Shown here in pieces: positions 2,790 through 55,440 of a stretch of DNA of 64,000 nucleotides. The stretch is from the NCBI GenBank assembly GCA_016194445.1, contig JACQBP010000035.1, positions 4,396 to 68,395 on the forward strand, written 5' to 3'. A program made the translations under genes and the position numbers. The stretch comes from Candidatus Liptonbacteria bacterium (lineage in GTDB: Bacteria > Patescibacteriota > Minisyncoccia > UBA6257 > 2-01-FULL-56-20). How positions within the stretch are numbered: position 1 is the first letter of the stretch; each line of letters begins with the position of its first letter. Below the pieces are notes generated by a model. The model was not told the origin of the DNA. It did no database searches and saw only the letters and a list, made by a program, of their open reading frames with translations.

Positions 2790-2829
2790 CCCTCGGGTGT
2801 ACAACACTGCACCCGGGGGTTTCTTTTTC
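2790..2829 (+). terminator. rho-independent terminator-like hairpin followed by a T-run
   Basis: CCCTCGGGTG...CACCCGGGGG stem followed by TTTCTTTTT directly after the stop of the 2000..2746 CDS. Confidence 0.4.
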
Positions 2830-2896
2830 CCAGGTAGTAGAAACTCGACTTTGTTTTTTTGGAAGTAAAATGCCCAGTCGAGTTTTCACTACCCGG
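2829..2896. repeat. GTAGTAGAA/TTTCACTAC hairpin element, copy 1
   Basis: CCCAGGTAGTAGAAACTCGACT ... AGTCGAGTTTTCACTACCCGG forms a 21-bp imperfect inverted repeat. The same stem with the same mismatches recurs at 40148..40208 and 43492..43550. Confidence 0.6.
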
Positions 2897-4410: not shown

Positions 4411-4457
4411 CGTTTTATTGATTGATAATATGTTAAAAATTGATTAGAGTAAAGACA

Positions 4458-7052
4458 ATGGCGAGGGTGATTTCTATTTGTAATCAAAAAGGCGGGGTGG
4501 GGAAATGTTTGGCGCCAGGGACGCCGGTGCTTCTTTCGTCTGGAGAACTGGTGCCTATCGACAGGGTTTTTGAAAAGCACTGGGGAGATAATTTAGTGAA
4601 GAGGCTTGATAGCGACGGCGGAGTTTTTATTAAACCGAAACATGAGATCGGGGTTTTTTCTTTAGATGACGAACTTAAGATCGTTGAGGGCAAGGTGGAG
4701 GCTTTATACCGAGGAAGAGCGGAAAAGCTTCTCGAGATTAGAAGTAGTAGAGGTAAAACAGTAAAGGTAACCCCCACACACCCTTTCTTGTCGTTCAGGA
4801 ATGGTAAGCCAGGGTGGGTGTGTGCCAATGACTTGGAGGAAGGTGATTTTATTGCGGTACCCCGACAGGTCGAAGTCAGAAGTCGGAATAGCGCCGTAGA
4901 TCTGATTCCGATGGTTCCAGATGAAATTTATCTTTGGGTTAAGGACAAAGACTTTGTGGATGTTCATTTGGCCGACATTCTTTCCCGATCGAGTTTGAAT
5001 CTTGAGGATAAAATATTGTTTCAGCTCTTACAACAAGAAGAGGTGTCCGCTTCCAAACTTTATGCCACAGGAGGCAAGCCAGCTGTTTTTAAGCATCTGC
5101 GGTCGCTTTTGGCCAAAAATGTTGTAAGCCGAAGGAGGAGAGGGGAATATGTTTACTCACTCATTCGGGAAGGGGCCGTTGATTATATGTATCGGAGAGG
5201 TTTTTCGGTTCGAGTTTTTAAGGAGTGTGGTTGGGATAAAAATATGATTGCTAAGATGGGCTATCGCACTCGTTTTGGTTACACGTGTATTCCTATAAAC
5301 CCAATCTGGGAATTGGATAGAGATTTGGCGATTTTCCTCGCTATTATTTTAGCCGAAGGATATCTTGGGCCGTCGCGGATTGTGCTGTTTCATACCTCGC
5401 CTGAGATATTGGATTTTTTTAGCGCCTACTGTAGGAGGGTTGGGCTCCGATGCCAAAAAGAGTGGGTTGGTAATCAGTGGAAAGCGACGGTTAATCAAGC
5501 CGGAACCTTGATGAAGATTCTTCACGAGGTAGGGGAGGTGCCAATACGAGGCAATCGGAAATCATTTAAGGTTAAGGTTCCGGGGGTGGTGCTACGGGCA
5601 CCCAGAGAAATCTTAGCCGCTTATCTTGGCGCCTACATCGGCTGCGAGGGGTATATTGCAAAGGACAGGTCTACGGTTGAAGTGACCAGCGCTAGTTTTG
5701 AGAATATTATTGGGCTACAATATGCTTTTTTGAGATTTGGAATTAACAGTACTTTGAGGAGTGGATGGAAGTGGGCTACTAATTCTCCTGCGCCAAAGAA
5801 AAGGATGTATCACTTTCTTACCATTACCGGCTCTCATGATCTGCGGATTATTTTGGAAGGTTTGCCGATTTTGATTGAGGAAAAAGTCGAGAAACTCAAG
5901 AGGGTCTGTGAACTGAAACCAAACACTAATGTTGACGTAGTGCCAGGGGTAGGGTATTTGATAAAGTCGGTTCGGCAAAGCTTGGGGTTGCGGCAAAGAG
6001 ATGTCGGCATCCAAGGAACAATTACTGATTATGAAGATGGCAGTAATAATCCGTCAAGAACGGCGATCCAGGGAATGGTGGCCACTCTTTCGAGGAGCCC
6101 TTTGTTTTCTTATCAGGATCTCGAGGTAGAACTTTTGGATCGACTGGGATTCTCGGATGTGTTTTGGGAGCGGGTAACTTCTAAAACTTCTAGCGATTAC
6201 GATGGCTACGTTTATGATTTAACTGTTGGTAAATTCCATAATTTCATAGCTGGACAGGGTGGGTTGGTGGTGCACAATACGACGACGGCCGTTAATTTGG
6301 GGAGCTATTTGGCGGCGCTCGGTCGGCGGGTGTTACTCGTGGATTTTGACCCGCAGGCGAACGCGAGTTCGGCTTTGGGTTATGATCCTTTGCGGACGGA
6401 GCTTAGCGTTTATCACGGCATTATTAACGCCGCGCCGCACGAACACGTGATCCGGCCAACCGCCCTATTTAACTTTCATTTAGTGCCGGCGGCGCCGCAT
6501 TTGGCCGGAGCTTTAGTTGAGTTTGTGAATTTGCCGGAGCGGGAATATTTCCTTCGAAAGTTTATTAATCGCGTCAGACATAGCTACGATTATGTTTTAG
6601 TGGACTTGCCGCCGTCCTTGAGTCTGCTCACCGTGAACGGTTTGGTGGCATCGGATGAAGTTTTGGTGCCGGTGCAGGCGGAGTATTATAGCTTAGAAGG
6701 ATTGGGTCAGCTTTTGCAGACGATTGATTTGATTCGAAATAATTTGGGACACAACATTAAGGTTAGCGGCGCGGTGCTTACCATGTACAATAAGGGCGAA
6801 CGGTTGAGTCGGGAAGTGGCGACGAATTTAAGGAAAAATTTTCCGTACACTGTTTTCAACACTGAAATCCCCAGAAGTGTGGCGCTCGCGGAGGCGCCCA
6901 GTTTTTCGAAGCCGGTGATGCTTTACCGGCCGGATTCGATCGGGGCTTTAGCATATCGGAATTTGGCGGCGGAGGTTATGGCTCAAGAGAAGGAATTGAT
7001 TGCGGGGGCGATGGTAGCGAGTCAAGATTTTGGAAATTTTAATGTTATTTAG
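4458..7052 (+). CDS. soj: chromosome-partitioning ATPase ParA/Soj interrupted by an intein (possible alternative start at 4440)
   Basis: MARVISICNQKGGVGK then C...; after residues VVHN the extein resumes TTTAVNLGSYLAALGRRVLLVDFDPQANASS, a typical ParA. The Walker A motif KGGVGK|T is split by the insertion. Confidence 0.85.
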   Translation: MARVISICNQKGGVGKCLAPGTPVLLSSGELVPIDRVFEKHWGDNLVKRLDSDGGVFIKPKHEIGVFSLDDELKIVEGKVEALYRGRAEKLLEIRSSRGKTVKVTPTHPFLSFRNGKPGWVCANDLEEGDFIAVPRQVEVRSRNSAVDLIPMVPDEIYLWVKDKDFVDVHLADILSRSSLNLEDKILFQLLQQEEVSASKLYATGGKPAVFKHLRSLLAKNVVSRRRRGEYVYSLIREGAVDYMYRRGFSVRVFKECGWDKNMIAKMGYRTRFGYTCIPINPIWELDRDLAIFLAIILAEGYLGPSRIVLFHTSPEILDFFSAYCRRVGLRCQKEWVGNQWKATVNQAGTLMKILHEVGEVPIRGNRKSFKVKVPGVVLRAPREILAAYLGAYIGCEGYIAKDRSTVEVTSASFENIIGLQYAFLRFGINSTLRSGWKWATNSPAPKKRMYHFLTITGSHDLRIILEGLPILIEEKVEKLKRVCELKPNTNVDVVPGVGYLIKSVRQSLGLRQRDVGIQGTITDYEDGSNNPSRTAIQGMVATLSRSPLFSYQDLEVELLDRLGFSDVFWERVTSKTSSDYDGYVYDLTVGKFHNFIAGQGGLVVHNTTTAVNLGSYLAALGRRVLLVDFDPQANASSALGYDPLRTELSVYHGIINAAPHEHVIRPTALFNFHLVPAAPHLAGALVEFVNLPEREYFLRKFINRVRHSYDYVLVDLPPSLSLLTVNGLVASDEVLVPVQAEYYSLEGLGQLLQTIDLIRNNLGHNIKVSGAVLTMYNKGERLSREVATNLRKNFPYTVFNTEIPRSVALAEAPSFSKPVMLYRPDSIGALAYRNLAAEVMAQEKELIAGAMVASQDFGNFNVI
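4506..6278 (+). mobile_element. large intein (591 aa) with a LAGLIDADG homing-endonuclease domain inserted in the parA P-loop
   Basis: Starts with Cys (CLAPGTPVLL). Block B is VTPTHPF. LAGLIDADG-like blocks are LAIFLAIILAEGYL and LGAYIGCEGYI. Block F/G is VYDLTVGKFHNFIAG...VVHN, followed by the +1 Thr. Confidence 0.8.
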
Positions 7053-7094: not shown

Positions 7095-8228
7095 ATGCTA
7101 GGCAAAGGATTAGAATCTTTAATTCCGCCGGGGGGTGGACAGAAGCCGAATGATGGCGGATCCAGCCAGTCTCAAGATGCGGGTTTGACGGGACAGGCCC
7201 CGATACTAGAATTTCGAAAACCTGAAGGTTCGATAAGTTCGAAATTCAGTACGGGACAGGCCCAGCCCCACTTTCGAGAGAAAGATGGAGCTGGGCAAGC
7301 CCGGATAGTAGAAACTCGGAAGCCTGAAGGTTCGACGAGTTCGAAATTCAGTACGGAACAAGCCCAGCCCCACCTTGTGGATAAAAGTGGAGCTGGGCAA
7401 CCGCGCCTTCGCGAGCACGCTTCGGCGGGCGAGGCGATTTTTCAGATTGAAGTTTCAAAAATTAAACCGAATCCGCATCAACCGAGAAAAGATTTCGACG
7501 AGGAGTCAATCAAGGAACTCGCGGCGTCAATTAGCGAGGTAGGGATTTTACAGCCCTTGGTGGTCACTAAAGTTGAAAAAGAGACGCCGACGGGGACGGA
7601 TGTTGAATACATACTGATCGCTGGGGAGAGGCGGCTTTTAGCATCCAAGAGATTGGGGTTAGAGAGGGTGCCGGCTATTATTAAAAAATTGGATTTTGAA
7701 AGAGAGAGACTCGAGATGGCCATTGTCGAGAATCTCCAAAGGGAAGATCTGAACCCCATTGAAACCGCGAGGGCCTTTTCGAGACTGCAAGATGAATTCA
7801 ATTTAACCCAACGAGAAATTGCCACTCGTTTAGGCAAAAGCCGAGAGGCGGTGGCGAACACCGTCAGACTTTTAGATTTGCCGGTCTTTATACAAGAGGC
7901 GCTGGCGAGAATCCAGATCACGGAGACGCACGGAAGATTGTTACTGGCGGTGGCTGATCCGGCGGCGCAGAGGAAACTTTTTGATGATATTTTACTCAAA
8001 AGAATGACCACTCGGGAGCTCAAAGAAAGAGTCAAACCTCAAAAAGGGAACAGCGGAATTTTAACTGGGAACGATTTACCTCCCGAACTTCAGAGTTTGC
8101 AAGAAGAATTAGTCTCGAAATTAGGAGCGCCAGTGCGGATTCAGCAGCAGGGTAAAACTGGGAAAATTACGATCAGCTTCTTTTCCGAAGAAGAACTCCG
8201 AAGCATTGTCGAGAAGTTAGGCAATTAG
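7095..8228 (+). CDS. spo0J: chromosome-partitioning protein ParB/Spo0J with an N-terminal repeat insertion
   Basis: MLGKGLESLIP start; ParB box IKPNPHQPRKDFDE and GERRLLASKRLGLERVPAII; HTH region. Roughly 95 aa of tandem repeats sit between the N-terminus and the ParB-N domain. Confidence 0.85.
   Translation: MLGKGLESLIPPGGGQKPNDGGSSQSQDAGLTGQAPILEFRKPEGSISSKFSTGQAQPHFREKDGAGQARIVETRKPEGSTSSKFSTEQAQPHLVDKSGAGQPRLREHASAGEAIFQIEVSKIKPNPHQPRKDFDEESIKELAASISEVGILQPLVVTKVEKETPTGTDVEYILIAGERRLLASKRLGLERVPAIIKKLDFERERLEMAIVENLQREDLNPIETARAFSRLQDEFNLTQREIATRLGKSREAVANTVRLLDLPVFIQEALARIQITETHGRLLLAVADPAAQRKLFDDILLKRMTTRELKERVKPQKGNSGILTGNDLPPELQSLQEELVSKLGAPVRIQQQGKTGKITISFFSEEELRSIVEKLGN
7198..7261. 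repeat. MITE-like element with terminal inverted repeats (CCCCGATAC...GTACGGG), in frame within parB
   Basis: About 75-80% identical to 14215..14280. A second partial copy lies at 7300..7365, giving a tandem repeat with a period of about 120 bp. Confidence 0.6.
7300..7365. repeat. second (partial) tandem copy of the MITE-like element inside parB
   Basis: AAGCCTGAAGGTTCGACGAGTTCGAAATTCAGTACGGAACAAGCCC is near-identical to 7214..7261. Confidence 0.55.
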
Positions 8229-14106: not shown

Positions 14107-14178
14107 GCGCGGTTAGCTCAGTGGTAGAGCGCTTCGTTGACATCGAAGAGGTCAGAAGTTCGATCCTTCTACCGCGCA
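14107..14178 (+). tRNA. tRNA-Val(GAC)
   Basis: GCGCGGTTAGCTCAGTGGTAGAGCG..TTGACAT..GTTCGATCC..ACCGCGCA; anticodon GAC. Confidence 0.85.
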
Positions 14179-14214
14179 CAGTCTCCCATAAATCATATAG
14201 CATGAAACATGAAA

Positions 14215-14280
14215 CCCCGATACTAGAAGTTTGGAAAAACTTAAGTTTTAAGAAGTTCCAGACTTCAGTACGGGGCAGGC
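14215..14280. repeat. MITE-like element (CCCCGATACTAGAAG...TTCAGTACGGGGCAGGC) abutting the RBS of the rluA-family gene
   Basis: Aligns over about 66 nt with 7198..7261. Terminal inverted repeats are CCCCGATAC / GTACGGGG. Confidence 0.6.
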
Positions 14281-40147: not shown

Positions 40148-40208
40148 CCCAGATAGTAGAAGTTCAGAACGCTAAAGCATATTGAAAAATCTGAACTTCA
40201 CTACCGGG
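40148..40208. repeat. GTAGTAGAA/TTCACTAC hairpin element, copy 2 (upstream of the atp operon)
   Basis: CCCAGATAGTAGAAGTTCAG ... CTGAACTTCACTACCGGG. Confidence 0.5.
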
Positions 40209-40340
40209 AGGGCGTTATTTTAGCAGATTAATGCTGTTTTGAGAAGAGGGAAAAAACGGCTCAAGGACGAAGCTCCTCGCGCCGTTACCGTGACCGCTCT
40301 CCCTCCTGGTCCAGGGGGCTCAAATTAATTATATCTCGAT

Positions 40341-40589
40341 TTAGAAAATCAGCCAGAAGAAAATTAGGGCGGCGAGGACGCGATAAACGCCAAAAGAGGT
40401 GAAGACGCTTCTGGATTCGATTTTGGAGGACCGGCGGTTCAATTGCTCCAGCGGCAATTGCCCGTCTGCGCTCTCGGCGCTAAAATTTTTCCATGAAAAA
40501 ACCAAGCTTTTAGCGCCTGCGAGAGCCCCTCCAAAATCGAATCTTTCGCTTAGGTGTGAAGAAAAGATATTTAAAAAACAATTAGCCAT
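40341..40589 (-). pseudogene. small ORF whose C-terminus duplicates the UppP C-terminal helix (possible gene remnant)
   Basis: Ends FTSFGVYRVLAALIFFWLIF, against the UppP end FTSFGIYRVIVAIILWLIVF. GC-richer than the flanks; the N-terminal part is unrelated to UppP. Confidence 0.3.
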
Positions 40590-41941: not shown

Positions 41942-42129
41942 ATTGATTTGTGAATGGAATTGAGTTCACCCGCCAAAATTTTCCAAATGAAAACTTAGGA
42001 GGGCAAGCGACCCCAGCCCCACTGCTTTTGGAGCTGGATTTCGCTCTCCGAATGGAAGAAAGATTTTTAATTGCGGAGAGCTCAACTTTTCCGACCTTTG
42101 GATTATTTTCTCACAAGTTATAAAAAAGA

Positions 42130-43305: not shown

Positions 43306-43491
43306 TTTTTCCTCCTTGTCGAGTTATGAGTTAAACTTAGCTGGCTTTAAGGTAACATAGTTTTGGTAATTATTACAAGCGAGCCCTCGCGGCCTCTAAC
43401 AGGATTGACAAATTCTATACCTTTGGTATGATCGTTCAACACTATCAGACCAAGAGGCATAGTCGAGTTTCTAGGTAAAAACCAGGTAGTA

Positions 43492-43550
43492 GAACTTCGG
43501 CGTGTCGCTTTTCGCGACTGCGTTTAATCGGCCGAAGTTTCACTACCTGG
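43492..43550 (+). promoter_or_regulatory. long imperfect hairpin in the cspA 5' leader (GTAGTAGAA/TTTCACTAC element, copy 3)
   Basis: CCAGGTAGTAGAACTTCGGC ... GCCGAAGTTTCACTACCTGG, 14 nt upstream of the csp ATG. Confidence 0.55.
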
Positions 43551-44813: not shown

Positions 44814-45407
44814 TTAGAGGGTATTGGTTTGTTCCCGGCCGGTTGAAGTTCGATACACCCTACACGCTGCCCAAAGACCAAGTCCGTTTCCGCGAGCTTC
44901 AGTTTCGGCTTCGTTAAAATCTTTAACCCGAGAAGTATCCGGTTCGTAGGGGTAGCTAAAGGCCAATCCCTGTTTGACTAGCGCCAAATTCACAAAAGTG
45001 CCGTCGCTAAGATACACAAAGCCTAGCCAGCGGCCGTACTTATCTCGATCCGATACATCTTTGTAAAAAATAATCGACTGGCCTTCGACTAGAGCTTGAT
45101 TGGCGGCGGCCGCTTCTTTGGCAAAACATTGAACTGGCTTTCTCGGATCGACTTCCTCGGGCGTATCGATGCCGATGTAGCGCAACCGATCGCCATTCAC
45201 CAGTTCAACCGTGTCGCCATCGATCACTCTTACCACTTTAATCGCGTGGCCAGCTTCCGTTTTGAAGGAAGCGTCATAGAGCGTCGCGGTATTTTTACCT
45301 AACCCGCCGATCAGAGCCGGAGACGCGTAGTGATAAAACAAAAAAGCCGCAATCAATGCGCCAGCCAGAAAATAAAATTTCTTCAATGTCATCGGCCTAA
45401 TATTCAA
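44814..45407 (-). CDS. secreted thermonuclease (SNase-like)
   Basis: Signal peptide; VIDGDTVEL ... RYIGIDTPE ... GRWLG catalytic pattern. Confidence 0.75.
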   Translation of the reverse strand: MNIRPMTLKKFYFLAGALIAAFLFYHYASPALIGGLGKNTATLYDASFKTEAGHAIKVVRVIDGDTVELVNGDRLRYIGIDTPEEVDPRKPVQCFAKEAAAANQALVEGQSIIFYKDVSDRDKYGRWLGFVYLSDGTFVNLALVKQGLAFSYPYEPDTSRVKDFNEAETEARGNGLGLWAACRVYRTSTGREQTNTL

Positions 45408-45496
45408 AAATACAGTTTTTACTTCCTTTATTAGATGCGTTCAGAACTTTGATTGGAGGAAAGATAGGGTGAGAAGTGGAAGAACTGCGGTTAGAG

Positions 45497-45715
45497 TTAA
45501 GATTTGCCGTTTAGATACTTACTTGCAACACTTAACGCAAATGAAGGCAGTATAATAAAGACCGCCGTAAATAGAAGTTTCATTAATAATATATGTAGAC
45601 TCGAGCTATTGGCATCCCCTCCATCCGGCAATGTCAAAACTACTAATATTCCAATAATTCCAAAAGCAATGGATGAGTAAACAAATATTCGTGTCACTAT
45701 TTTTTGTTTCGACAT
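45497..45715 (-). CDS. small hypothetical membrane protein
   Basis: Two TM helices. Confidence 0.3.
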   Translation of the reverse strand: MSKQKIVTRIFVYSSIAFGIIGILVVLTLPDGGDANSSSLHILLMKLLFTAVFIILPSFALSVASKYLNGKS

Positions 45716-46155
45716 GGTCGGGGATCCTCGATAAATTCAAATCTTTAAATTTATCGGGACATAGTTTTAGTATATCTGTGTATTTTAATCATCAAAGGTC
45801 GAATCAAAAATTCAAAATTTTAACGCCGCCGATTCTATCTAACTTATCCACAACTACTGTCTTGACGAGTGGGACCACTTAAGGAGCTATTAGAGATACC
45901 GAGCTTTTTGGGGAGTACAATTGGCCTTTCAGGGTCAATTAAGGCAACTAATCAGGGTCAATATACGGCATAGAAAGTATTCAAGCCTTGTCTAGTCAAA
46001 CTGATATATCAACAGCCGAACGAGCACTCTTTTCAATCGGCGCACCAATAATTACTACTTTAGGAGCTATAGGCACGGCATATTTCGGTTCCGCTATTGG
46101 TCTAAAAATTAAGAAGGTGCTTGAATCTAAAAAAGCTCGATAATGACAACTAAAA

Positions 46156-46452
46156 ATGCCATCAATATTTAGAGAATTTTTAAATAAGTCTGGATTAAGC
46201 GATGACAAAATCAAAGAGTTTGAAAAAGAATTCGCGATAGTAATCTTGCTTAAAATCCTTAGCGAGACCTACGAAAAACTTTCGACAGATGACAGAGAAA
46301 AAGTTAAACAACTTTTCGACCAAAGAAAGATGGATGAGATAATTGAATTTATCGAAGGAAAATACCCAATCGAAGAGTGGAAACAACTCCTTGAATCAAA
46401 AATCGCGCCAATTTTTGAAAGCTACATAAAAGAGGTCGTATTCGGAAAATAA
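46156..46452 (+). CDS. hypothetical protein
   Basis: 98 aa, helical, charged. Confidence 0.35.
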   Translation: MPSIFREFLNKSGLSDDKIKEFEKEFAIVILLKILSETYEKLSTDDREKVKQLFDQRKMDEIIEFIEGKYPIEEWKQLLESKIAPIFESYIKEVVFGK

Positions 46453-46500
46453 TTTAGAATATCTAACCATATTCTATCGTCACCACAGCTTTCGCGATTA

Positions 46501-47439
46501 TTACTGTGAATTTTTAGCTTTAGGTGTTCCGCCTTTAACTAACGAAGTGTGCCAGCCAAAATCGTTTACATTTCGCTCCAGAGTTTGCTTTGTCTTGTTG
46601 TCTCCCCCAAAAGTCCCCCATCCCGAGAGTGCGTTAACTTCATCCACTACCTTGCAATCTTGATCAAAAAGTTTCAGCCATTCGCCGTCGTTCGACATCG
46701 CGCCCACATAAATTTTATCCGCCGGAATTCCCGGCACCGAATTATCATCCGTCCGCTCCAACAAGAAAAGCCCGCCGGAGGAAATTTTTTCATTACTTCT
46801 AAAAACAATCTTAATCGTGCCTTTAGAATTTTTTATCTGCCAACCCTTCAAACTAACTTCGCCGGAAAAATTATTTTTCAGTTCCATCCATTCGTTGTTC
46901 GATGAACTCGCGCTCCCCATCCACGCTACCTCATTCAATAAAACTTTTCCGCTCGGCGTACTCGAAACCGAAAAATCACAATCTTGGATCGTCGGCTGAC
47001 TCGGTACTACTCGACTCACCGAAGATGTCGCCGTAGTTGTCGCGACCGGAACTTCTAAAGTAGAATTTTTAAAACTTTTAGCATTGTTTTTACCGAAACT
47101 GCGCGTGGTTGAAGTCATTCCACTCTCGCTCGCGCTTGTTTTCACCGATTTTCGAGAAACGTCGCCACCCTCCGGCGTCAAAACTTTCGTCGAAGTCGAA
47201 TTTTTATTTTGTGAACCACCCAGTTCGACTTCGTAAACCGGTTTCTCACTCTTAAAACCAAAAACGTCCTTCAGAGTTTGCGAGACTGACACCGAAAAAT
47301 TCCCTAAAAGAGAGTTTTCTCCCGAAATTTTCCCGCCGAAAACAAAAACTAAGACTAACAAGCCAGCTAAACCTGAACCAATCCAAAACTTCGGTCGCGT
47401 CCAAAATTTTTTCTTCCCTAAATCAAATTCTTCCTCCAT
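46501..47439 (-). CDS. secreted lamin-tail-domain (LTD) protein
   Basis: N-terminal TM/signal. The C-terminal region LLNEVAWMGSASSSNNEWMELKN...LKGWQIKN...LFLLER is typical of LTD proteins. Confidence 0.65.
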   Translation of the reverse strand: MEEEFDLGKKKFWTRPKFWIGSGLAGLLVLVFVFGGKISGENSLLGNFSVSVSQTLKDVFGFKSEKPVYEVELGGSQNKNSTSTKVLTPEGGDVSRKSVKTSASESGMTSTTRSFGKNNAKSFKNSTLEVPVATTTATSSVSRVVPSQPTIQDCDFSVSSTPSGKVLLNEVAWMGSASSSNNEWMELKNNFSGEVSLKGWQIKNSKGTIKIVFRSNEKISSGGLFLLERTDDNSVPGIPADKIYVGAMSNDGEWLKLFDQDCKVVDEVNALSGWGTFGGDNKTKQTLERNVNDFGWHTSLVKGGTPKAKNSQ

Positions 47440-47719
47440 CTTTGATAAAATTTCTTAAAAATAAAACTGGCCCGCCCTTCCCAAAACCCTGTCAAGGGGG
47501 AAAGCCTCCTTCCCCTTGCCAAAACTCGAACCTATCCTTAAAACTTAGTTCGATTCGGCTCTGATTTTTAAGAGCTCCCCGTGTCGCGAAAAGTCTCTAG
47601 CGGTTATCATAATGATTTCCCTAAAAAGTAGCAAATGTCTCGGACTTATCCACAAGACTTAAAAAAAATCTCGGTGGTAAACTTATCCTGTCAAAAAAAA
47701 TTTAGTGAGGCCAGGAATT

Positions 47720-50011
47720 ATGTCCCCAAAGAGAAATCATTTCGCCGAAGTTAGAAAAAGAGATGGCCGCATCGTCGCCTTTGATCAAGATCGTATCACA
47801 AGCGCCATCAAAAAAGCCATGTTGGCTGCCGGAGAAGATCACCCCGAAGTCGACGCCGAGCGAGTTTCTGATCAAGTGGTCAATGCCCTCGCCCACAAAT
47901 TCACCGCCACTCACCTTCCCTCGATCGAACAGATTCAGGATATGGTGGAAACCCAACTCATGGCCACCGGTTTCACCCAAACCGCCAAATCTTACATTCT
48001 CTACCGCAACGAACGCGCCCGACTAAGAGAAGAAAAGCGCGAAGTCCCTGAACACGTCCGCGATTTAGCCGCGGAGAGTAAAAAATATTTCCGTAACCCC
48101 TTGGGCGAATTTATTTTCTACCGCACTTACTCCCGTTGGATCGAAGAAGAAAACCGCCGCGAAACTTGGATTGAGACGATTGATCGCTACCTGGATTTCA
48201 TGAAAGAAAATCTTGGCAACAAATTAACCGATGCCGAGTACAGCGAAATCCGTGAAGGTATTTTAAATCAAGAAGCCATGCCTTCGATGCGCCTCCTGCA
48301 ATTTGCCGGCAAAGCTGCTCGCTCGACCAACGTTGCCGCCTACAACTGCTCCTTCATCGCTCCCTCAAAACTTCAAGACTTCGCCGAAATTATGTACATC
48401 TCCATGTGCGGCACCGGTGTCGGCTTCTCGGTTGAAAATCAAAACGTTCAGCAACTTCCCCAAATCAAAAAACAAGGCGGTGAGAAATTGCCTACTCACG
48501 TGATCACCGACTCCAAAGAAGGCTGGGCTGACTCTTTGGCTTTCGGTATGCAAACCTGGTTCAATGGTAAAGACGTTGAGTTTGATTATTCCGAACTCCG
48601 GCCTGCCGGCGCGAGATTGAAAACTATGGGCGGCAAAAGCTCCGGTCCTGATCCGATCCGCTCACTCTTAAATTTCACGCGCGCTAAAATCCTAAAGAAG
48701 CAGGGTCGCCGTCTCTCCAACCTCGACGTCCACGACGTGATCTGTAAAATCGGCGAGATCGTGGTCGCTGGCGGCGTCAGGCGCTCCGCTTTAATTTCTC
48801 TCTCCGATCTCGACGACATCGAAATGCGCGATGCTAAAAAAGGCCAGTTTTATACGACCGAACCCCAACGCTCGCTCGCTAACAACTCTGCCGTCTACAA
48901 TCAAAAACCCTCCGCCGCTGAATTTATGGACGAGTGGATCGCGCTTATAAAAAGCGGCTCCGGGGAGCGCGGTATCTTCAACCGCGGCGGCCTGGCCAAA
49001 ACCCTGCCCGAACGCCGTCTCAAAGTCCTCAAGGGCTACGTGGGCGATCTGGGCACCAACCCTTGCGGTGAAATTATTTTGCAATCCAAACAATTCTGTA
49101 ACCTCTCCGAAGTGGTTTGCCGCGCCGAAGACACCGAGGAATCCTTGCTCCGTAAGGTTCGTCTAGCCACCATCTTAGGCACCTATCAAGCCACCCTCAC
49201 TAAGCTTCCCTATCTTTCCAAAGAATGGACCGAAAATTGTGAAACCGAAAGGCTCTTGGGGGTATCCATGACCGGCCAATGGGACTCGGTGGTCGCCCGC
49301 GAGCCCGAAGTTTTAAATAAGTTAAGAGAAGAAGCTATTAAAATTAACCAAGAATATTCCAAACGCTTCAAAATCAATGAATCCACCTGTATCACTTGTG
49401 TCAAACCCAGTGGCAATCTCTCGCAAACTGTCGACTGCGCCTCGGGCCTTCACCCTCGCCACTCGAAATACTATATCAGAAGAGTTCGTATCGCTCACAC
49501 CGACTCCCTTTTCAAAATGCTCCGCGACCAAAAAATTCCCTATCACCCCGAAGTGGGCCAATCGATGGAAACCGCCACCACCTACGTCGTTGATTTCCCA
49601 GTCAAATCTCCCGAAGGCGCCGTCTTCAAAAATAACGTCACCGCTCTCGAACTTCTCGAACATTGGAAAACGGTGAAAACTAAATTCACCGAACACAATC
49701 CTTCGGTCACCATCTCCGTGGGCGACGAAGAGTGGATTGCGGTGGCCGACTGGCTCTATGAAAATTGGGAAGTCATCGGTGGCCTCTCCTTCCTCCCTCG
49801 CTCCAACCATGTTTACCAGTTAGCTCCCTACGAAGAAATAAATGTTGATCAATACCAAGAAATGCTAGAAAAATTTGAAGGTTTAGATTTTTCCCAAATC
49901 ATGGCCTACGAAAAACGGGATGAAACCGACTTGAAAAAAGAACTGGCGTGCGTGGGCGGCGTTTGCGAGATCGACGAAGTCACCACCGAAGCCACCGCCG
50001 TAGCCGCTTAA
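47720..50011 (+). CDS. nrdJ: ribonucleotide reductase, class II-like, with an N-terminal ATP-cone
   Basis: ATP-cone VRKRDGRIVAFDQDRITSAIKKA; active-site loop NPCGEI; C-terminal CVGGVC. No adjacent nrdB. The ORF track starts at GTG 47705; ATG 47720 with GAGG 9 nt upstream is preferred. Confidence 0.8.
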   Translation: MSPKRNHFAEVRKRDGRIVAFDQDRITSAIKKAMLAAGEDHPEVDAERVSDQVVNALAHKFTATHLPSIEQIQDMVETQLMATGFTQTAKSYILYRNERARLREEKREVPEHVRDLAAESKKYFRNPLGEFIFYRTYSRWIEEENRRETWIETIDRYLDFMKENLGNKLTDAEYSEIREGILNQEAMPSMRLLQFAGKAARSTNVAAYNCSFIAPSKLQDFAEIMYISMCGTGVGFSVENQNVQQLPQIKKQGGEKLPTHVITDSKEGWADSLAFGMQTWFNGKDVEFDYSELRPAGARLKTMGGKSSGPDPIRSLLNFTRAKILKKQGRRLSNLDVHDVICKIGEIVVAGGVRRSALISLSDLDDIEMRDAKKGQFYTTEPQRSLANNSAVYNQKPSAAEFMDEWIALIKSGSGERGIFNRGGLAKTLPERRLKVLKGYVGDLGTNPCGEIILQSKQFCNLSEVVCRAEDTEESLLRKVRLATILGTYQATLTKLPYLSKEWTENCETERLLGVSMTGQWDSVVAREPEVLNKLREEAIKINQEYSKRFKINESTCITCVKPSGNLSQTVDCASGLHPRHSKYYIRRVRIAHTDSLFKMLRDQKIPYHPEVGQSMETATTYVVDFPVKSPEGAVFKNNVTALELLEHWKTVKTKFTEHNPSVTISVGDEEWIAVADWLYENWEVIGGLSFLPRSNHVYQLAPYEEINVDQYQEMLEKFEGLDFSQIMAYEKRDETDLKKELACVGGVCEIDEVTTEATAVAA

Positions 50012-50159
50012 AAGAAATCACTTTTTCTTGAAATCAAAAAGTTGCTTGGTAAAGCAAAAGATTTTTTGATTTCAACCCGATACTTTCTCATTTCTTTAAT
50101 AACGCCTTACAAAATCATCTCTTGAAAAACTAATTTAATCTGTTAAGCTAGATTGGCAT

Positions 50160-50429
50160 TCCCCGGTAGCTCAGTGGTAGAGCGGATCCCTGTCGGATAG
50201 GCAGCCTACAAGAGTAATCTTGTTTGAAAATTTCGGGATAACGGTGAACCCTTCGATACGCTTTGGCATATAAAGGTAACACCGTGGGAACCTCGCAATT
50301 TGCGGGGGCACCGTAGAGACTAGATACCGAAACATCCCAGTTGGGATGATGATATAGTCCGCGCCCTTTGGAAACTTTGGGATAAGTGTAAGGATAAGGT
50401 CGTAGGTTCGAATCCTACCCGGGGAGCCA
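50160..50429 (+). tRNA. tRNA gene interrupted by a group I intron; most likely tRNA-Asn(GUU)
   Basis: 5' exon (50160..50193) is TCCCCGGTAGCTCAGTGGTAGAGCGGATCCCTGT. 3' exon (50389..50426, plus CCA) is TAAGGATAAGGTCGTAGGTTCGAATCCTACCCGGGGAG+CCA. Joining them gives the anticodon loop CUGUUAA. U1:A72 and G73 match bacterial tRNA-Asn. Confidence 0.75.
50194..50388 (+). ncRNA. group I self-splicing intron (about 195 nt, small IC3-like) in the tRNA anticodon loop
   Basis: Conserved core elements are present: P-like AATTTGCGGG, R-like GTAGAGACTAGA and S-like GATATAGTCC. The 5' exon ends in U and the intron ends in G. A possible P1 pairs exon CUGU with intron GCAG. Confidence 0.7.
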
Positions 50430-52016
50430 GATGGGATGAGTGTCGCGAAAAGCGGCACTTTTCTCTTTATTGGTGGGCTTTTTCGCAGGTTCGAAAGTGC
50501 TTTTTTCGGTGTTTTTCTCGGAAAGCTCTTGTTGAACTCGATCATGTATGAGTTTAAAGGCTTTTTGGTAAGAAACCTCGACATTCTTGCCGTTTATCTT
50601 GGGGTTCGAAAATAGAAATGACAGCAGGGTTCGTTTTTGCTCAACCGTTCGCCGGGGTTTTAGATAAGTGTCGCGGGCCTCTTTTGCTATTTGAAGCACG
50701 GCCACACCCATCTCAAAATATTTGAGATTCGCGTTGCGATGGCGGTTTAAGCTGTCCAGCGTTTCTTCTTGCTCTTTTTTGTATTGCTGGAGTTTTTTGT
50801 CATAAAAATCGTGGCTGATTCGGCCGTCGATTTTATCGTCATAAAGTTTATCTATTCTCTGGGTGGCCGTCTGATATCTTCGTTCAAGTTCGGCCGATGA
50901 TTTTTCACGGAAGGCGATCTCGCCGGCATGGCTTTCTTTGAGTGCCTCTTGGACCCACGAGAGCATCCGTTCAATGCGTTTATCTTCGTGGCTTACTTCA
51001 ACCACCGATTTGGCCACTTGAGTATTGATATCTTCTTGCTTTACCCAATCATAATTCGGGCAGTTTTTGTAATGATTGCAGTGGCCGTACCAATGGCCTT
51101 TTTGTATTTCCCAAGTAATCGTTCCTCCGCATTCACTGCATCGGAATACGCTTTTAAACAGCGAATTGTGCTTTCGCATCCTCGGAGCTCCGTAACTGTG
51201 CAATCTATCCTGCACTTTTTGAAAAAGTTCTTTACTGATAAGCGGTTCGTGGTGACCCGGGGTGATCTGATTTTTCCATCGGTTCATGCCGTAGTAGAAC
51301 GGATCACCGAGAAGCTGATGGATTCGGGCATGGCTTACTTTGTGACTGGTACGCGAGCGCAGGCCTTTTTCATACATCGCATTGCAGAGTGTCTTGGTTG
51401 AGTATTGGCCGGATGCATATAATTCAAACATCTTTTTAATGAGTGGTGATTTTTCCTCGTCAATCACATGAACTTTATGTCCCTTCTCGCCGTCGGTTTT
51501 ATATCCGAGCGGAGGCTTTGTCGGCAACCATCCCTGCGCCAGTTTTTCTTTTTGCCCCTTTTTTACATTTTCAGAGAGCAGTCGGATATAGTATTCGGCT
51601 GTTGCCACTTTTACTCGCCACATAAACCACTCGTGCGATTTTGATTCTTTGTGCAGGGTGCATCCTTCTTTGACCAGATGAATTTTATGATTATCATCGG
51701 CCAGTATCCAATTATCAATAACCGGTACATCGGCGAAGTTTCTGGTGAGCCGGTCGGTGGTCTCTACGATGATGGTGTTGATTTTGTTTTTTACCACATG
51801 CGCCATCATCTCGCCGAAGATTTTTCGCTGGATTTTGCCGGCGGCCGACTCTTGGATGGCAAAAACTTTCGTGAGCTCGAAGTTATTGCGTTCGGCATAG
51901 TCGCGAAGGAATTTTTCTTGGGCCGGTAGTGAATAGCCGGTATCCTCTTGATCTTTTGAGGACACGCGGGCGTATCCCACGGTCTTTGGCATTTCGTTAT
52001 TGTTTATCATTGTCAT
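50415..52016 (-). CDS. large serine recombinase (integrase)
   Basis: N-terminal resolvase catalytic domain with VGYARVSSKDQ; recombinase domain; zinc ribbon CSECGG...HCNHY. The 3' end overlaps the tRNA 3' end by 15 nt. Confidence 0.85.
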   Translation of the reverse strand: MTMINNNEMPKTVGYARVSSKDQEDTGYSLPAQEKFLRDYAERNNFELTKVFAIQESAAGKIQRKIFGEMMAHVVKNKINTIIVETTDRLTRNFADVPVIDNWILADDNHKIHLVKEGCTLHKESKSHEWFMWRVKVATAEYYIRLLSENVKKGQKEKLAQGWLPTKPPLGYKTDGEKGHKVHVIDEEKSPLIKKMFELYASGQYSTKTLCNAMYEKGLRSRTSHKVSHARIHQLLGDPFYYGMNRWKNQITPGHHEPLISKELFQKVQDRLHSYGAPRMRKHNSLFKSVFRCSECGGTITWEIQKGHWYGHCNHYKNCPNYDWVKQEDINTQVAKSVVEVSHEDKRIERMLSWVQEALKESHAGEIAFREKSSAELERRYQTATQRIDKLYDDKIDGRISHDFYDKKLQQYKKEQEETLDSLNRHRNANLKYFEMGVAVLQIAKEARDTYLKPRRTVEQKRTLLSFLFSNPKINGKNVEVSYQKAFKLIHDRVQQELSEKNTEKSTFEPAKKPTNKEKSAAFRDTHPIWLPG

Positions 52017-52109
52017 TTTTGGTTAATTTTTTGGTTCGAAATCGACCTTTGGTCTCAAGACAACCCCTATGCCAATTCTCGATATCCATCAAGCTGATTT
52101 GCCCACAGC

Positions 52110-52646
52110 TCAAACACCGGTGTCTATCCAGTCAAAAAGTCGGTTTTCCGCATCTTCTGGATATTCTTTTCGAGCCAGCTTGAGCCGTACTTCGTAAGGG
52201 ACGAGATACCACCTTTCCATTGATGTCATTTTTGAGAGCGCTTCTTTGCTTAAATTCATTTCTTCTTTGGGCCTGCCTTCGACGCGATCCAGAAGCTCTT
52301 TTATGGCGCCGAGCTTCACATTGTCTTGCTGGCTTCCCATTAAAGCTACGAGCATTTCGTTGGCAAGCCGGAAGTTCTTCTCGCGAATTTGAACGCCGGC
52401 CTTGAGAAGCATCTGCATCGTTTCCCCGTGGATTGTATCCATTTCTTTCTCGTAAAGCTTGTATGTCTCGCAGAGCGTTCCCGTGTCTTTAAACCAATCT
52501 TTTGCTGTTTGCTCGGAAAACTTGCCTTTTCTACTTTTTTCAAACTGGGAATTCAAAGTTTCGGCAATGTCTTGGTAGGAATTGCCTTTATATTTCAGCT
52601 CTAACGCTTTCTTGTGGTATTCGGCTAAATGTTTGAGTTTCGGCAT
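52110..52646 (-). CDS. hypothetical HTH protein (element-encoded)
   Basis: GNSYQDIAETLN helix-turn-helix-like segment. Confidence 0.35.
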   Translation of the reverse strand: MPKLKHLAEYHKKALELKYKGNSYQDIAETLNSQFEKSRKGKFSEQTAKDWFKDTGTLCETYKLYEKEMDTIHGETMQMLLKAGVQIREKNFRLANEMLVALMGSQQDNVKLGAIKELLDRVEGRPKEEMNLSKEALSKMTSMERWYLVPYEVRLKLARKEYPEDAENRLFDWIDTGV

Positions 52647-52657
52647 GAAAAGTTGTG

Positions 52658-52855
52658 TTAAGTAGAGTGTTTGGCTGATTCATGGCGAATAGGTTGGACC
52701 GGCTTCCCCAGCACATACTCAATAATAATTATTGCCGCTTGAAGCCGTATTGATTCGTCTTTGCTTTCCAAAAGCGAAACCAGCACTTTTGTCGCTTTCA
52801 CTACATTTTTTCGTAGTATTTCTATCGCGATTTCTTCTGGCTTTTTATTTTTCAT
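52658..52855 (-). CDS. small hypothetical protein
   Basis: 65 aa, overlaps the next gene by 4 nt. Confidence 0.25.
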   Translation of the reverse strand: MKNKKPEEIAIEILRKNVVKATKVLVSLLESKDESIRLQAAIIIIEYVLGKPVQPIRHESAKHST

Positions 52856-53346
52856 GGTTTTGGCGTCATTGATTTTATTAATGTCTCGCGACCTCTTGCG
52901 AGCGCATCCAATGATTCCTGGTCTTTTTCTTGGGCGTATTGACGGCGGTATTTTAGATCATCGAGCGCGCGTTTCTTTTGGCAAAATTCTTCGTATGCCT
53001 TAAGGCCTGGGCCTACCGCCCAGCTCCAGCCCGGGTGTTCTGGCTTAACCCAGCGACGAGATATCGCTTTATTTCGAAGCAGATATTGGACGATACCGGC
53101 ATCGGTTAGGCCGGTAACATCGTTGCGAACTCGACGCGTGTCTTGGCTTTCGGGGAATTCTCGCTTGCCGATCTTAAAGGCGTTTATAACCGGCACCGTC
53201 TCTCCGTAGAAGCTCATTGGTCTTTCCAGCGGTTCTTTTTTCAGTTGCTCAAGCTCGGCCTCAAATTCTCGAATAGCTTTTCGATCTTCTTCGATATCCA
53301 AGTCGTACCCGACTTTTATTGGTTTTTGTTCTTCATTTAATTTCAT
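52852..53346 (-). CDS. hypothetical protein
   Basis: Charged helical protein; no recognisable motif. Confidence 0.35.
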   Translation of the reverse strand: MKLNEEQKPIKVGYDLDIEEDRKAIREFEAELEQLKKEPLERPMSFYGETVPVINAFKIGKREFPESQDTRRVRNDVTGLTDAGIVQYLLRNKAISRRWVKPEHPGWSWAVGPGLKAYEEFCQKKRALDDLKYRRQYAQEKDQESLDALARGRETLIKSMTPKP

Positions 53347-53349
53347 GGC

Positions 53350-55353: not shown

Positions 55354-55440
55354 AGTGTTAAATCCATTGTGTCAGATTTTGCCACTTTTGAAAATAAATA
55401 CGAGCGGACGGTAACAGTTTCAATGAGCTAAAGCGACGGA

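What the first reader, a model, noticed from the sequence alone, without database searches (positions are those of the whole stretch)
2829..2896. Family of imperfect hairpins with conserved GTAGTAGAA / TTTCACTAC arms and conserved mismatches
Three copies share the same stem including the same A.C and G.U positions, while the loops differ. They are at 2829..2896 after a terminator, 40148..40208 upstream of the atp operon, and 43492..43550 in the csp leader. Conserved mismatches argue for selection on a structure or a protein-binding site.
Basis: seen in the sequence. Interest (0 to 1): 0.55.

Follow-up and report, generated by a model that had tools for sequence, protein, structure and literature searches.

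The report
Tiny foldback transposon family of CPR bacteria
The three hairpins are real and belong to a family of 60-160 bp inverted-repeat mobile elements (six copies in this window, two of them inside the parB gene) found across the small-genome Patescibacteria, so the conserved arms are most likely transposon ends rather than a dedicated regulatory RNA.

Summary
The window, from a Candidatus Liptonbacteria MAG, holds six copies, all on the + strand. Three are the reported ones. The others are one upstream of an rluA-like gene and two read in frame inside parB.

Each copy has CC...GG termini and a short covarying outer stem. Next come a conserved 4-bp box (UAGU/ACUA, or UACU/AGUA, or CAGU/ACUG), an always-unpaired A, GAA/UUC, a variable complementary inner stem, and a loop.

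An exact-pattern scan of 185,579 species genomes found about 50 true hairpins. All but one or two are in Patescibacteria-labelled or unclassified MAGs.

The family behaves as mobile DNA:
- Copies sit nested inside other copies, with 4-bp duplications.
- Flanking 3-5 bp direct repeats are far above permutation controls.
- One orthologous site, the parB 3' end, is empty in one lineage and filled in two others.
- Versions of 135-160 bp carry the same ~21-bp ends.
- There are no copies in 42 kb of the nearest relatives.
- Orientation is not tied to flanking genes.

No Rfam match and no cognate transposase were found. Verdict: a new MITE-like family, not described in the library searched. Some strand bias and one strongly conserved copy remain unexplained.

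The parts
2829..2896 (+). Copy 1 (type A, CCAGG...CCCGG ends, lacks the first bulged A). It lies between a strong terminator-like hairpin (2787-2822) and a promoter-like site (2904-2931).
   Evidence: -28.5 kcal/mol, z -6.1; 45.1 bits
7198..7261 (+). Copy 4 (type B, TACTAGAA...TTCAGTAC, with 3' tail ACAGGC). It is read in frame inside parB (ORF 7095-8228) and forms the first unit of a 102-nt tandem duplication.
   Evidence: z -4.6; 63.4 bits
7300..7363 (+). Copy 5, a degenerate hybrid copy (TAGTAGAA...TTCAGTAC, no stable fold). It is the second unit of the 102-nt duplication inside parB.
   Evidence: z +0.16; 19.5 bits
14215..14280 (+). Copy 6 (type B with 3' tail CAGGC). It lies between tRNA 14107-14178 and the rluA-like gene, and its tail ends 13 nt before the ATG at 14293.
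   Evidence: -31.3 kcal/mol, z -7.3; 63.8 bits
40148..40208 (+). Copy 2 (type A, CCCAG...CCGGG). It lies between uppP/bacA and atpB, both on the - strand, 31 nt upstream of the atpB start. It is antisense to them, and a - strand promoter-like site (40245-40217) abuts it.
   Evidence: z -3.2; 65.3 bits
43482..43550 (+). Copy 3 (type A, CCAGG...CCTGG) flanked by AAAAA/AAAAA. It sits in the csp 5' leader, downstream of a near-consensus promoter-like site (43405-43432) and 14 nt before the ATG at 43564.
   Evidence: -39 kcal/mol, z -7.7; 39.7 bits

Best explanation
The hairpins are copies of a non-autonomous, foldback-type miniature inverted-repeat transposable element (MITE-like) that is specific to Patescibacteria (CPR).

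Structure. An element is little more than two imperfect terminal inverted repeats of about 20 bp around a short, free interior.
- Left end: CC-N-GG-(A)-TAGT-A-GAA-NNNNNNN.
- Right end: the same without the one or two extra A.
- Total length is 60-85 bp in most copies and up to 135-160 bp in some.

Shown here:
- It inserts as DNA. Copies are nested in other copies, flanked by 3-5 bp target duplications, and present or absent at an orthologous site.
- It accumulates in intergenic spacers, next to or inside earlier copies, and in tolerant coding DNA (the disordered ParB linker; the ParB C-terminus in other lineages).
- Both arms stay complementary while their sequence drifts.

Inferred, not shown:
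- A trans-acting transposase recognises the conserved TAGT-A-GAA box about 5 bp from each CC/GG terminus and makes staggered cuts.
- Arm complementarity is kept because a hairpin or both-ends match is needed for mobility.
- Once transcribed, the copies form very stable RNA hairpins. These may incidentally affect the csp, atp and rluA leaders.
For: Anatomy and family.
- Alignments A1 and A2 and the consensus fold.
- The covariance model finds six copies in the window.

Taxonomic range.
- The exact-pattern scan returned 114 loci.
- Inner-stem length is bimodal. 45 matches have at least 5 consecutive pairs. All but one (Veillonella, taken as a chance hit) are in Patescibacteria-labelled or unclassified MAGs. 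L094 is labelled Gammaproteobacteria.
- The covariance model adds further true copies with interrupted stems, two of them in a MAG labelled Methylomirabilis (L067, L107).
- Nearly all other non-CPR hits have 0-3 pairs.
- Several MAGs carry 3-8 hit loci.

Nested insertions.
- In L060 one copy splits the consensus 3' arm of another (GTCGAATTTT|...|TTTTCACTACCTGG). A second copy is flanked by CCAG/CCAG.
- L102 and L054 also show nesting.

Target duplications.
- Exact 5-bp flanking repeats: 5 observed against 0.26 expected (maximum 3 in 2000 permutations).
- 4-bp repeats with +/-1 boundary slack: 18 against 2.5 (maximum 10).
- Examples: TGTTA, TGAAG, TTCAA, CTTCG, CTAA, TTAA, and AAAAA at window copy 3.

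Filled and empty orthologous site (the ParBs are 81-82% identical).
- The parB 3' end is uninterrupted in L125 and in the window.
- It carries one decayed copy in L124 and three copies in L102.

Other support.
- The 68 codons supplied by the two parB copies are absent from all 23 aligned ParB homologues.
- Longer 135-160 bp versions have the same ~21-bp ends and non-hairpin interiors.
- Near-identical paralogues 350 nt apart in L044 suggest recent copying.
- There are no copies in 42 kb around obg in the two closest relatives.
- Orientation is independent of flanking genes, and 58 of 64 copies are intergenic.
- No Rfam family matches.
Against: - No autonomous element or transposase with these ends was found. 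It is absent from the window, from orphan-end searches in about 120 loci, and from the genes recurring near copies.
- The subfamily with CCCCG...CGGGG ends, especially type B, carries a 3' tail CARGC and usually no target duplication. This does not fit a simple staggered-cut model.
- Five copies in one genome have five different inner arms that are each self-complementary. This points to selection for a single-stranded hairpin rather than for one transposase footprint.
- Loops often contain a small covarying stem with UUCG/UGAA/UAAA-type loops.
- One orthologous pair (L027/L097) keeps the element at 72/73 identity while the adjacent terminator hairpin is only about 85% identical and the upstream ORF is far more diverged.
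- The top strand lies on the G-rich strand in 44 of 64 copies, and in 6 of 6 window copies.
- The empty csp site was not found in metagenomes.
Confidence: 0.68

Rival explanations
1. A functional structured RNA motif. The hairpin, with its invariant bulged A, would be a binding or processing site for a CPR-specific RNA-binding protein or RNase. It would control mRNA stability or translation of adjacent genes such as csp, atp and rluA.
For: - Predicted RNA folds are very stable.
- 10 of 18 pairs show compensatory changes, including in the conserved box: G-C/C-G and U-A/C-G.
- Covarying small stems with tetraloop-like loops occur in many copies.
- Window copies lie 13-31 nt from start codons, one of them just downstream of a strong promoter-like site.
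- The L027/L097 copy is far more conserved than its surroundings.
Against: - No Rfam match.
- Orientation relative to flanking genes is random, 20 opp/opp against 16 same/same. Copy 2 is antisense to both neighbouring genes.
- Copy 1 sits between a terminator-like hairpin and the next promoter-like site.
- Copies occur in frame in parB, nested in each other, and with target duplications.
- Copies are absent from the nearest relatives and from an orthologous site.
- The genes next to copies are unrelated.
Confidence: 0.12
2. A single-stranded-DNA hairpin substrate of the REP/REPIN-RAYT, IS200/IS605 or integron-attC kind. The folded top strand, marked by its extrahelical A residues, would be recognised and moved by an HUH (Y1) transposase or a tyrosine recombinase at the replication fork.
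For: - The asymmetry is strand-specific: the extra A is always on the same arm.
- Arm complementarity is kept with free sequence.
- The ssDNA folds are stable.
- The top strand is on the G-rich strand in 44/64 copies, in 10/11 type B copies by my tally of the table, and in 6/6 window copies.
- Type B copies have a 3' tail and no target duplication.
- Copies cluster head to tail in BIME-like mosaics, for example the parB linker and L102.
Against: - Clear 3-5 bp target duplications occur in the CCNGG-ended copies and in nested insertions. HUH transposases and integron integrases do not make these (established knowledge).
- The REP hallmark GTAG lies inside the stem and is CTAG in type B.
- There are no attC R boxes (GTTRRRY) and no cassette array.
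- No Y1 transposase or integrase was seen in the window or recurring near copies.
- The skew analysis is confounded with gene orientation.
Confidence: 0.13
3. A double-stranded DNA operator or partition-type site. The two arms would be half-sites for a dimeric DNA-binding protein; for example, the GTTTCAC in the 3' arm resembles a parS half-site.
For: - The arms are conserved as sequence in duplex DNA.
- Several copies lie in or next to parB.
Against: - Half-site spacing varies from 33 to more than 100 bp.
- The interior is complementary, which an operator does not require.
- Copies have target duplications and nest in one another.
- The resemblance to parS is one heptamer recalled from memory.
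Confidence: 0.03

Closest known systems
Bacterial MITEs that form hairpins when transcribed (Neisseria Correia/NEMIS elements, enterobacterial ERIC/IRU, pneumococcal RUP). Comparison from my own knowledge.
   Same: - Short and non-coding.
- Terminal inverted repeats.
- Target-site duplication.
- Dispersed mostly in intergenic DNA in either orientation.
- Transcribed copies fold into long RNA hairpins.
   Different: - Those families have a conserved interior, a TA duplication, and a narrow host range (genus or family).
- This family is usually only 60-85 bp.
- Its interior and inner arms are free but self-complementary.
- Its duplications are 3-5 bp.
- The same 8-9 nt box is found across many CPR lineages.
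- No parent IS is known.
Rickettsia palindromic elements (RPE). Comparison from my own knowledge.
   Same: - Palindromic repeats in reduced genomes.
- They insert in frame into protein-coding genes and add peptide segments. Here these are the ParB linker (68 codons) and ParB C-terminal extensions in L102/L124.
   Different: - RPEs are 100-150 bp with family-specific conserved sequence.
- No sequence relationship was tested or is expected.
- Most copies here are intergenic.
REP/REPIN elements with RAYT transposases, and BIME mosaics. Comparison from my own knowledge.
   Same: - Short imperfect palindromes at high copy number in intergenic DNA.
- Compensatory evolution of the stems.
- Clusters of alternating hairpin types joined by short linkers. 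In the parB linker, hairpin A, ACAGG, hairpin C, CAAGC are repeated twice.
   Different: - Target duplications are present.
- GTAG is not at the stem foot.
- No RAYT was found.
- The conserved box is shared across phylum-level lineages instead of being genome-specific.
IS1380-family insertion sequences. This is a lead from my memory of the ISfinder family table: ends beginning CC, 4-5 bp duplications.
   Same: - The element ends always read 5'-CC inward.
- Duplications of 4-5 bp are the commonest clear class.
   Different: - 3-bp repeats also occur.
- No IS1380-type transposase or full-length element with these ends was seen.
- No comparison with real IS1380 terminal repeats could be made with these tools.
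TIGR stem-loop arrays (TIGR-Tas systems, PMC12045711)
   Same: - Occur in CPR bacteria.
- Consist of variable but consistently palindromic stems with conserved short motifs.
   Different: - TIGR units are tandem arrays next to a Tas (Nop-domain) gene.
- They carry box C/D motifs and two 8-12 nt spacers in the loop.
- The elements here are dispersed, lack box C/D, and show transposon hallmarks.

Membership tests
MITE (miniature inverted-repeat transposable element) | Small (tens to a few hundred bp) with no coding capacity of its own | tested here: met
   Elements are 60-85 bp in most copies and 135-160 bp in some. None has an ORF of its own.
MITE (miniature inverted-repeat transposable element) | Terminal inverted repeats | tested here: met
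   The ends are imperfect inverted repeats of about 20 bp, CC-NGG-(A)TAGT-A-GAA+7 against its complement without the extra A. They are the same in short and long versions.
MITE (miniature inverted-repeat transposable element) | Target-site duplication flanking the element | tested here: met
   - Exact 5-bp repeats: 5 observed against 0.26 expected.
- Flexible 4-bp repeats: 18 against 2.5, in 2000 permutations.
- Unambiguous TTTT and CCAG duplications occur at nested insertions.
- Caveat: the CCCCG-ended, type B subfamily mostly lacks them.
MITE (miniature inverted-repeat transposable element) | Multiple dispersed copies with insertion polymorphism between related genomes | tested here: met
   - Six copies in the window.
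- 3-8 hit loci in several MAGs.
- The parB 3' end is empty in L125 and the window and filled in L124 and L102.
- None in 42 kb of the nearest relatives.
MITE (miniature inverted-repeat transposable element) | A cognate autonomous IS/transposase with the same ends | tested here: inconclusive
   None was found in the window, in the orphan-end scan of about 120 loci, or among recurrent neighbouring genes. Whole genomes could not be scanned.
REP/REPIN-RAYT | Conserved GTAG-type tetranucleotide at the foot of the palindrome, outside the stem | tested here: not met
   GTAG lies inside the paired box (UA-GUAG-AA) and is CUAG in type B and in the CAGU variant.
REP/REPIN-RAYT | Insertion without target-site duplication | tested here: not met
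   Duplications of 3-5 bp are present at many copies. They are absent only in the tailed subfamily.
REP/REPIN-RAYT | A RAYT (Y1 HUH) gene in the genome, typically flanked by REPs | not tested
   Only 21 window ORFs were scanned against Pfam, and none is a Y1 transposase. The rest of the genome is not available.
Integron attC site | R''/R' core boxes (RYYYAAC / GTTRRRY) and location in a cassette array next to intI | tested here: not met
   The termini are CCNGG or CCCCG with no GTTRRRY. Copies are dispersed among housekeeping genes.
Curated structured RNA family (Rfam 15) | Match to a covariance model at or near its gathering score | tested here: not met
   Only three tRNAs pass the gathering score in the window. 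In the E-value scan around copy 3 the best hits are miRNA models at 17 bits against thresholds of 70 or more.
Cis-regulatory RNA element | Fixed sense orientation and fixed position relative to a particular gene class | tested here: not met
   Flanking genes are 20 opp/opp against 16 same/same. Neighbouring genes are diverse. In the fusA-tuf spacer, L002 and L035 carry copies in opposite orientations.
TIGR stem-loop array | Tandem array of units with box C/D motifs and dual spacers, next to a Tas gene | tested here: not met
   Copies are dispersed. There is no RUGAUGA/CUGA pair in the arms.

The most novel reading that the evidence does not exclude
The element is not an ordinary cut-and-paste MITE. 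It would instead be a hairpin-structured mobile unit whose folded top strand is the active form. That strand is marked by an invariant extrahelical A and, in one subfamily, a 3' CARGC tail. It would be either a single-stranded DNA substrate handled at the replication fork by an as yet unrecognised CPR enzyme, or a transcribed RNA that has been domesticated across the radiation. This would account for the free but complementary arms, the tetraloop-like inner stems, the G-rich-strand bias, the copies without target duplication, and the near-perfect conservation of at least one orthologous copy.
Probability: 0.17. Interest if true: 0.72.

Novelty: new member of a known kind. Interest (0 to 1): 0.42.

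Why it matters
CPR/Patescibacteria genomes are about 1 Mb and streamlined. A repeat family whose 8-9 nt core is shared across many of their lineages is therefore a useful fact in itself.

- It implies either a widely shared transposase or frequent exchange within the radiation.
- It remodels genes. It adds 68 codons to the ParB linker here and new ParB C-termini elsewhere.
- It places very stable hairpins in the csp, atp and rluA leaders.
- It is the kind of sequence that would be mistaken for a novel riboswitch or small RNA in comparative screens of CPR intergenic regions.

If the hairpin itself is the mobile or functional form, it would point to a new hairpin-recognising enzyme in organisms that cannot yet be grown alone.

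Tried and rejected
- **Rfam.** The gathering-score scan of the whole window and the permissive scan around copy 3 gave only tRNAs and miRNA noise.
- **Same-species contigs.** I fetched contigs through exact csp, rluA and atpB proteins to look for empty alleles. All were 99.6-100% identical with the elements present.
- **Nearest relatives by Obg (82-85%).** Synteny around obg is not conserved, so no orthologous csp or atp spacers could be compared. These loci hold no copies.
- **Predicted empty csp site.** Not found in metagenomes.
- **IMG/VR scan.** Two exact-pattern hits, neither accepted by the model, so the element is not evidently phage-borne.
- **Autonomous element.** The orphan-end scan found only decayed or longer non-coding copies. 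A left-end-only metagenome scan gave 12 loci, again all non-coding, at most 160 bp.
- **Recurrent genes near copies.** Only housekeeping genes recur: EF-G/Tu, ribosomal proteins, RNase III, NusA.
- **Pseudoknot idea.** I considered pairing between the CAGG tail and CCUG in type B loops. It was rejected by eye because the two do not covary.
- **K-turn, sarcin-ricin, box C/D and parS readings of the conserved box.** Considered from memory and rejected. The box is a plain Watson-Crick helix with compensatory changes.
- **TIGR arrays.** Rejected after reading PMC12045711.
- **Literature.** Searches for MITE or REP elements in Patescibacteria, Parcubacteria and Saccharibacteria found nothing relevant.

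Full report

Yes. The three sites read as described.
- 2829-2896: CCCAGGTAGTAGAA-ACTCGACT...AGTCGAGT-TTTCACTACCCGG
- 40148-40208: CCCAGATAGTAGAA-GTTCAGA...TCTGAAC-TTCACTACCGGG
- 43482-43550: CCAGGTAGTAGAA-CTTCGGC...GCCGAAG-TTTCACTACCTGG

TAGTAGAA-N15-45-TTCACTAC occurs three times in the window and never in 100 dinucleotide-preserving shuffles.

As RNA the three fold at -28.5, -20.5 and -39.0 kcal/mol, with z-scores of -6.1, -3.2 and -7.7. As DNA they are also far more stable than shuffles.

The 'same A.C and G.U positions' is true of copies 1 and 3. Their 3' arm has one more T, so the fold can be drawn either as A.C plus G.U or as a bulged A plus a bulged U. Copy 2 has a simple bulged A followed by G-C.

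**2. The family in the window is larger.**

A relaxed search and then a covariance model run without filters (R1) find exactly six copies, all on the + strand. The three additional copies are at 7197-7261, 7299-7363 and 14214-14280.
- The additional copies use TACTAGAA...TTCAGTAC. This is a compensatory G-C to C-G exchange inside the 'conserved' box.
- The copy at 7299-7363 is a decayed hybrid that no longer folds (z +0.16).

The two copies at 7.2-7.4 kb lie inside the parB reading frame (7095-8228). They sit in a 102-nt tandem duplication. Read in frame, they contribute about 68 residues (APILEFRKPEGS...GAGQP) to the disordered linker between the MLGKGLESLIPP motif and the ParB N-terminal domain. 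None of 23 aligned ParB homologues has this stretch.

**3. Anatomy.**

The alignment has 49 copies (A2). From outside to inside:
- Termini that always read CC...GG.
- An outer stem of 4-5 bp that covaries (CCCCG/CGGGG, CCAGG/CCTGG, CCGGG/CCCGG). At one outer-stem position the counts are C-G 21 and G-C 16.
- Usually an unpaired A, absent in window copies 1 and 3.
- A 4-bp box UAGU/ACUA. It appears as UACU/AGUA in 10 of 49 copies, and as CAGU/ACUG in two further copies found only by the model.
- An unpaired A present in every copy seen.
- GAA/UUC.
- A 6-8 bp inner stem whose consensus is AUUYGR/YCRAAU but which differs from copy to copy while staying complementary.
- A loop of 10-30 nt that often contains a small stem with a UUCG, UCCG, UGAA or UAAA loop.

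Ten of 18 consensus pairs show changes on both sides.

Two caveats apply. The arms are invariant in A2 because the search pattern fixed them. The first five inner pairs were a selection criterion. The outer stem, the box variants and the remaining inner pairs were not selected.

**4. Distribution.**

One scan of 185,579 species-representative genomes used GATASTAGAA-N25-55-TTCASTACSNG. The matches fall into two classes.
- 45 matches have at least 5 consecutive inner pairs, with folding energies around -20 to -40 kcal/mol.
- The rest have 0-3 pairs, as chance predicts.

All but one of the first class are in MAGs labelled Patescibacteria/CPR or merely 'bacterium'. One of these, L094, is labelled Gammaproteobacteria. 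The CPR labels include Paceibacterota, Liptonbacteria, Moranbacteria, Doudnabacteria, Portnoybacteria, Yanofskybacteria, Wolfebacteria, Nealsonbacteria, Colwellbacteria, Wildermuthbacteria, Kazan and 'Saccharibacteria'. The one exception, a Veillonella hit, matches the number expected by chance. The covariance model recovers several more true copies with interrupted stems. Two of these are in a MAG labelled Methylomirabilis (L067, L107).

Several MAGs contribute 3-8 loci each. The window itself comes from a Candidatus Liptonbacteria MAG contig of 70,218 bp. Rfam has no matching family. The pattern is essentially absent from IMG/VR.

**5. Evidence that it is mobile DNA.**

(a) Nested insertions.
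- In L060 one copy interrupts the 3' arm of another exactly within its consensus: GTCGAATTTT[CCAGATAG...CTACCTGG]TTTTCACTACCTGG. This duplicates TTTT.
- A second copy sits in the same host's loop, flanked by CCAG on both sides.
- L102 has a type A copy inside the loop of a type B copy, and L054 has a copy inside a truncated one.

(b) Flanking direct repeats.
- With boundaries fixed at the CC/GG termini, 19 of 51 copies have an exact 3-5 bp repeat. About 3 are expected.
- For 5 bp the count is 5 against 0.26 (maximum 3 in 2000 permutations).
- For 4 bp with one base of boundary slack it is 18 against 2.5 (maximum 10).
- Window copy 3 is flanked by AAAAA.

(c) A filled and an empty orthologous site.
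- At the 3' end of parB, which converges with relA/spoT, L125 reads ...CTGAAATTAGAATAG.
- L124 has a decayed type B copy plus tail inserted between ...TTAAA and TAGAATAG.
- L102 has three copies at the same point.
- The window is uninterrupted there.
- The three ParBs are 81-82% identical to one another. In L124 and L102 the insertion rewrites the ParB C-terminus (...RLNPDTKTSTR...RLNPDSRNSE).

(d) Longer versions. Elements of 135-160 bp from several metagenomes carry the same ~21-bp ends around interiors that are not simple hairpins.

(e) Patchiness and recent copying.
- There are no copies in 42 kb around obg in the two nearest relatives (82-85% Obg identity).
- L044 holds near-identical paralogues 350 nt apart.

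(f) Placement.
- 58 of 64 copies are intergenic.
- Orientation relative to flanking genes is 20 opposite/opposite against 16 same/same.
- The fusA-tuf spacer carries copies in opposite orientations in L002 and L035.

**6. Context of the window copies.**
- Copy 1 lies between a strong terminator-like hairpin (2787-2822) and the promoter-like site of the next gene (2904-2931).
- Copy 3 lies in the csp leader. It is downstream of an 11/12 promoter-like site with an extended -10 (43405-43432) and 14 nt before the ATG.
- Copy 2 is 31 nt upstream of the atpB start but antisense to it, and a - strand promoter-like site abuts it.
- The tail of copy 6 ends 13 nt before the rluA-like ATG.

These are consensus matches, not mapped transcripts. 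Any effect on expression is inference.

**7. Most likely mechanism.**

The family fits a non-autonomous foldback MITE. It has two imperfect terminal inverted repeats, the left one carrying one or two extra A. It has a free interior and 3-5 bp staggered-cut duplications. It prefers spacers and earlier copies. The conserved TAGT-A-GAA box about 5 bp from each terminus is the obvious candidate for a transposase footprint.

That a DDE-type enzyme acts in trans is inferred. None was found in the window, in an orphan-end search of the fetched loci, or among genes recurring near copies. From memory of the ISfinder family table, ends beginning CC with 4-5 bp duplications resemble the IS1380 family. 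This is a lead I could not test.

**8. What this does not explain.**
- Five copies in one genome have five different, each self-complementary, inner arms. Paralogues in one MAG (L033/L078) differ by compensatory changes in the outer stem. Selection for a single-stranded hairpin explains this more easily than one protein footprint does.
- Copies with CCCCG...CGGGG ends, above all type B, carry a 3' tail CARGC that belongs to the inserted DNA. They usually lack a duplication. Where CARGC also precedes them, it looks like the tail of an earlier copy.
- The top strand lies on the G-rich strand in 44 of 64 copies. By my tally of the table it does so in 10 of 11 type B copies. In the window it does so in 6 of 6, and there the skew is strongly positive from 1 to about 45 kb regardless of gene strand. 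In 8-kb loci this cannot be separated from gene orientation.
- The orthologous copies in L027 and L097 are 72/73 identical. The adjacent terminator hairpin is only about 85% identical, and the upstream ORF is far more diverged.

These points keep two rivals alive. One is an ssDNA-hairpin substrate of the REP/RAYT or attC kind. The other is a domesticated RNA hairpin. Neither is favoured, because of the duplications, the nesting and the random gene-relative orientation.

**9. Comparison with known systems, and novelty.**

It works like the hairpin-forming bacterial MITEs (Correia, ERIC, RUP). In its in-frame insertions it resembles Rickettsia palindromic elements.

It fails the tested defining features of several other classes:
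- REP/RAYT: GTAG is misplaced and duplications are present.
- attC: no R boxes and no cassette array.
- Any Rfam family.
- TIGR stem-loop arrays: no box C/D, no tandem array, no Tas gene.

Four literature searches found no description of such repeats in Patescibacteria. I therefore file it as a new member of a known kind. It is of moderate interest for its unusually small size, its free complementary arms, and its spread across the CPR. There is a minority chance that the hairpin itself is the active form.

Noticed in passing
window 7262-7294, 7364-7396, 42013-42037 (+): A second small hairpin family, CCAGC(C)CCAC...TGG(A)GCTGG, also has CC...GG ends and a conserved arm asymmetry. Two copies alternate with the main elements in the parB linker, joined by ACAGG/CAAGC linkers in a BIME-like mosaic. 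A third lies in the 41.9-42.2 kb spacer and is preceded by GGGCAAGC. It was not found in the other fetched loci with a strict pattern.
   Followed up: partly
window 4440-7052 (+): The ParA/Soj ATPase is interrupted in its P-loop (KGGVGK|C...HN|TTTAVNLG) by an intein with a LAGLIDADG homing-endonuclease domain (Pfam Intein_splicing 2.5e-24, LAGLIDADG_3 2e-11).
   Followed up: yes
window ~45000 and 45000-64000: - GC skew is strongly positive (+0.1 to +0.3) from 1 to about 45 kb on both gene strands, then flips or collapses.
- GC content falls to about 41% after about 52 kb.
- The distal part encodes a large serine recombinase (50415-52016, -), a LexA-S24 peptidase fused to an N6/N4 DNA methylase (56708-58177, -), several ORFs with no Pfam match, and a 1205-aa ORF with no Pfam match (58348-61965).
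- This could be a replication terminus or origin, an integrated element, or both.
- No hairpin copies occur beyond 45 kb.
   Followed up: partly
window 40209-40570: The non-coding spacer between uppP/bacA and atpB is about 360 nt, unusually long. It contains terminator-like and promoter-like sites on both strands. A Logan assembly calls an 82-aa gene there (L121 1528-1776). Its content was not resolved.
   Followed up: no
L027 ~7860-7980 and L097 ~1010-1130: Just downstream of the conserved element and a TTGACT...TATAAT promoter-like site there is a stretch of about 110 nt. It ends in a GC-rich hairpin plus a T-run (CTCCGCCACCCAGCAATGGGTGGCGGAGTTTTT). It is nearly identical between the two MAGs although the flanks diverge. 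It looks like a conserved small RNA gene.
   Followed up: no
L082 1907-2050; L102 2500-2690; L127; L093 7427-7551: Copies often sit head to tail or back to back. The next copy starts directly after the previous copy's GGGCARGC tail. This suggests that the tail or the end of a copy is itself a preferred target.
   Followed up: partly
L074 6606-7184 (-): A type B copy immediately upstream of a gene start is absorbed into the longest ORF. It adds LILEFRRPKDQKGSKFSTGQA, almost the same peptide as in the window's ParB (PILEFRKPEGSISSKFSTGQA). Such copies can create spurious or real N-terminal extensions in gene calls.
   Followed up: partly
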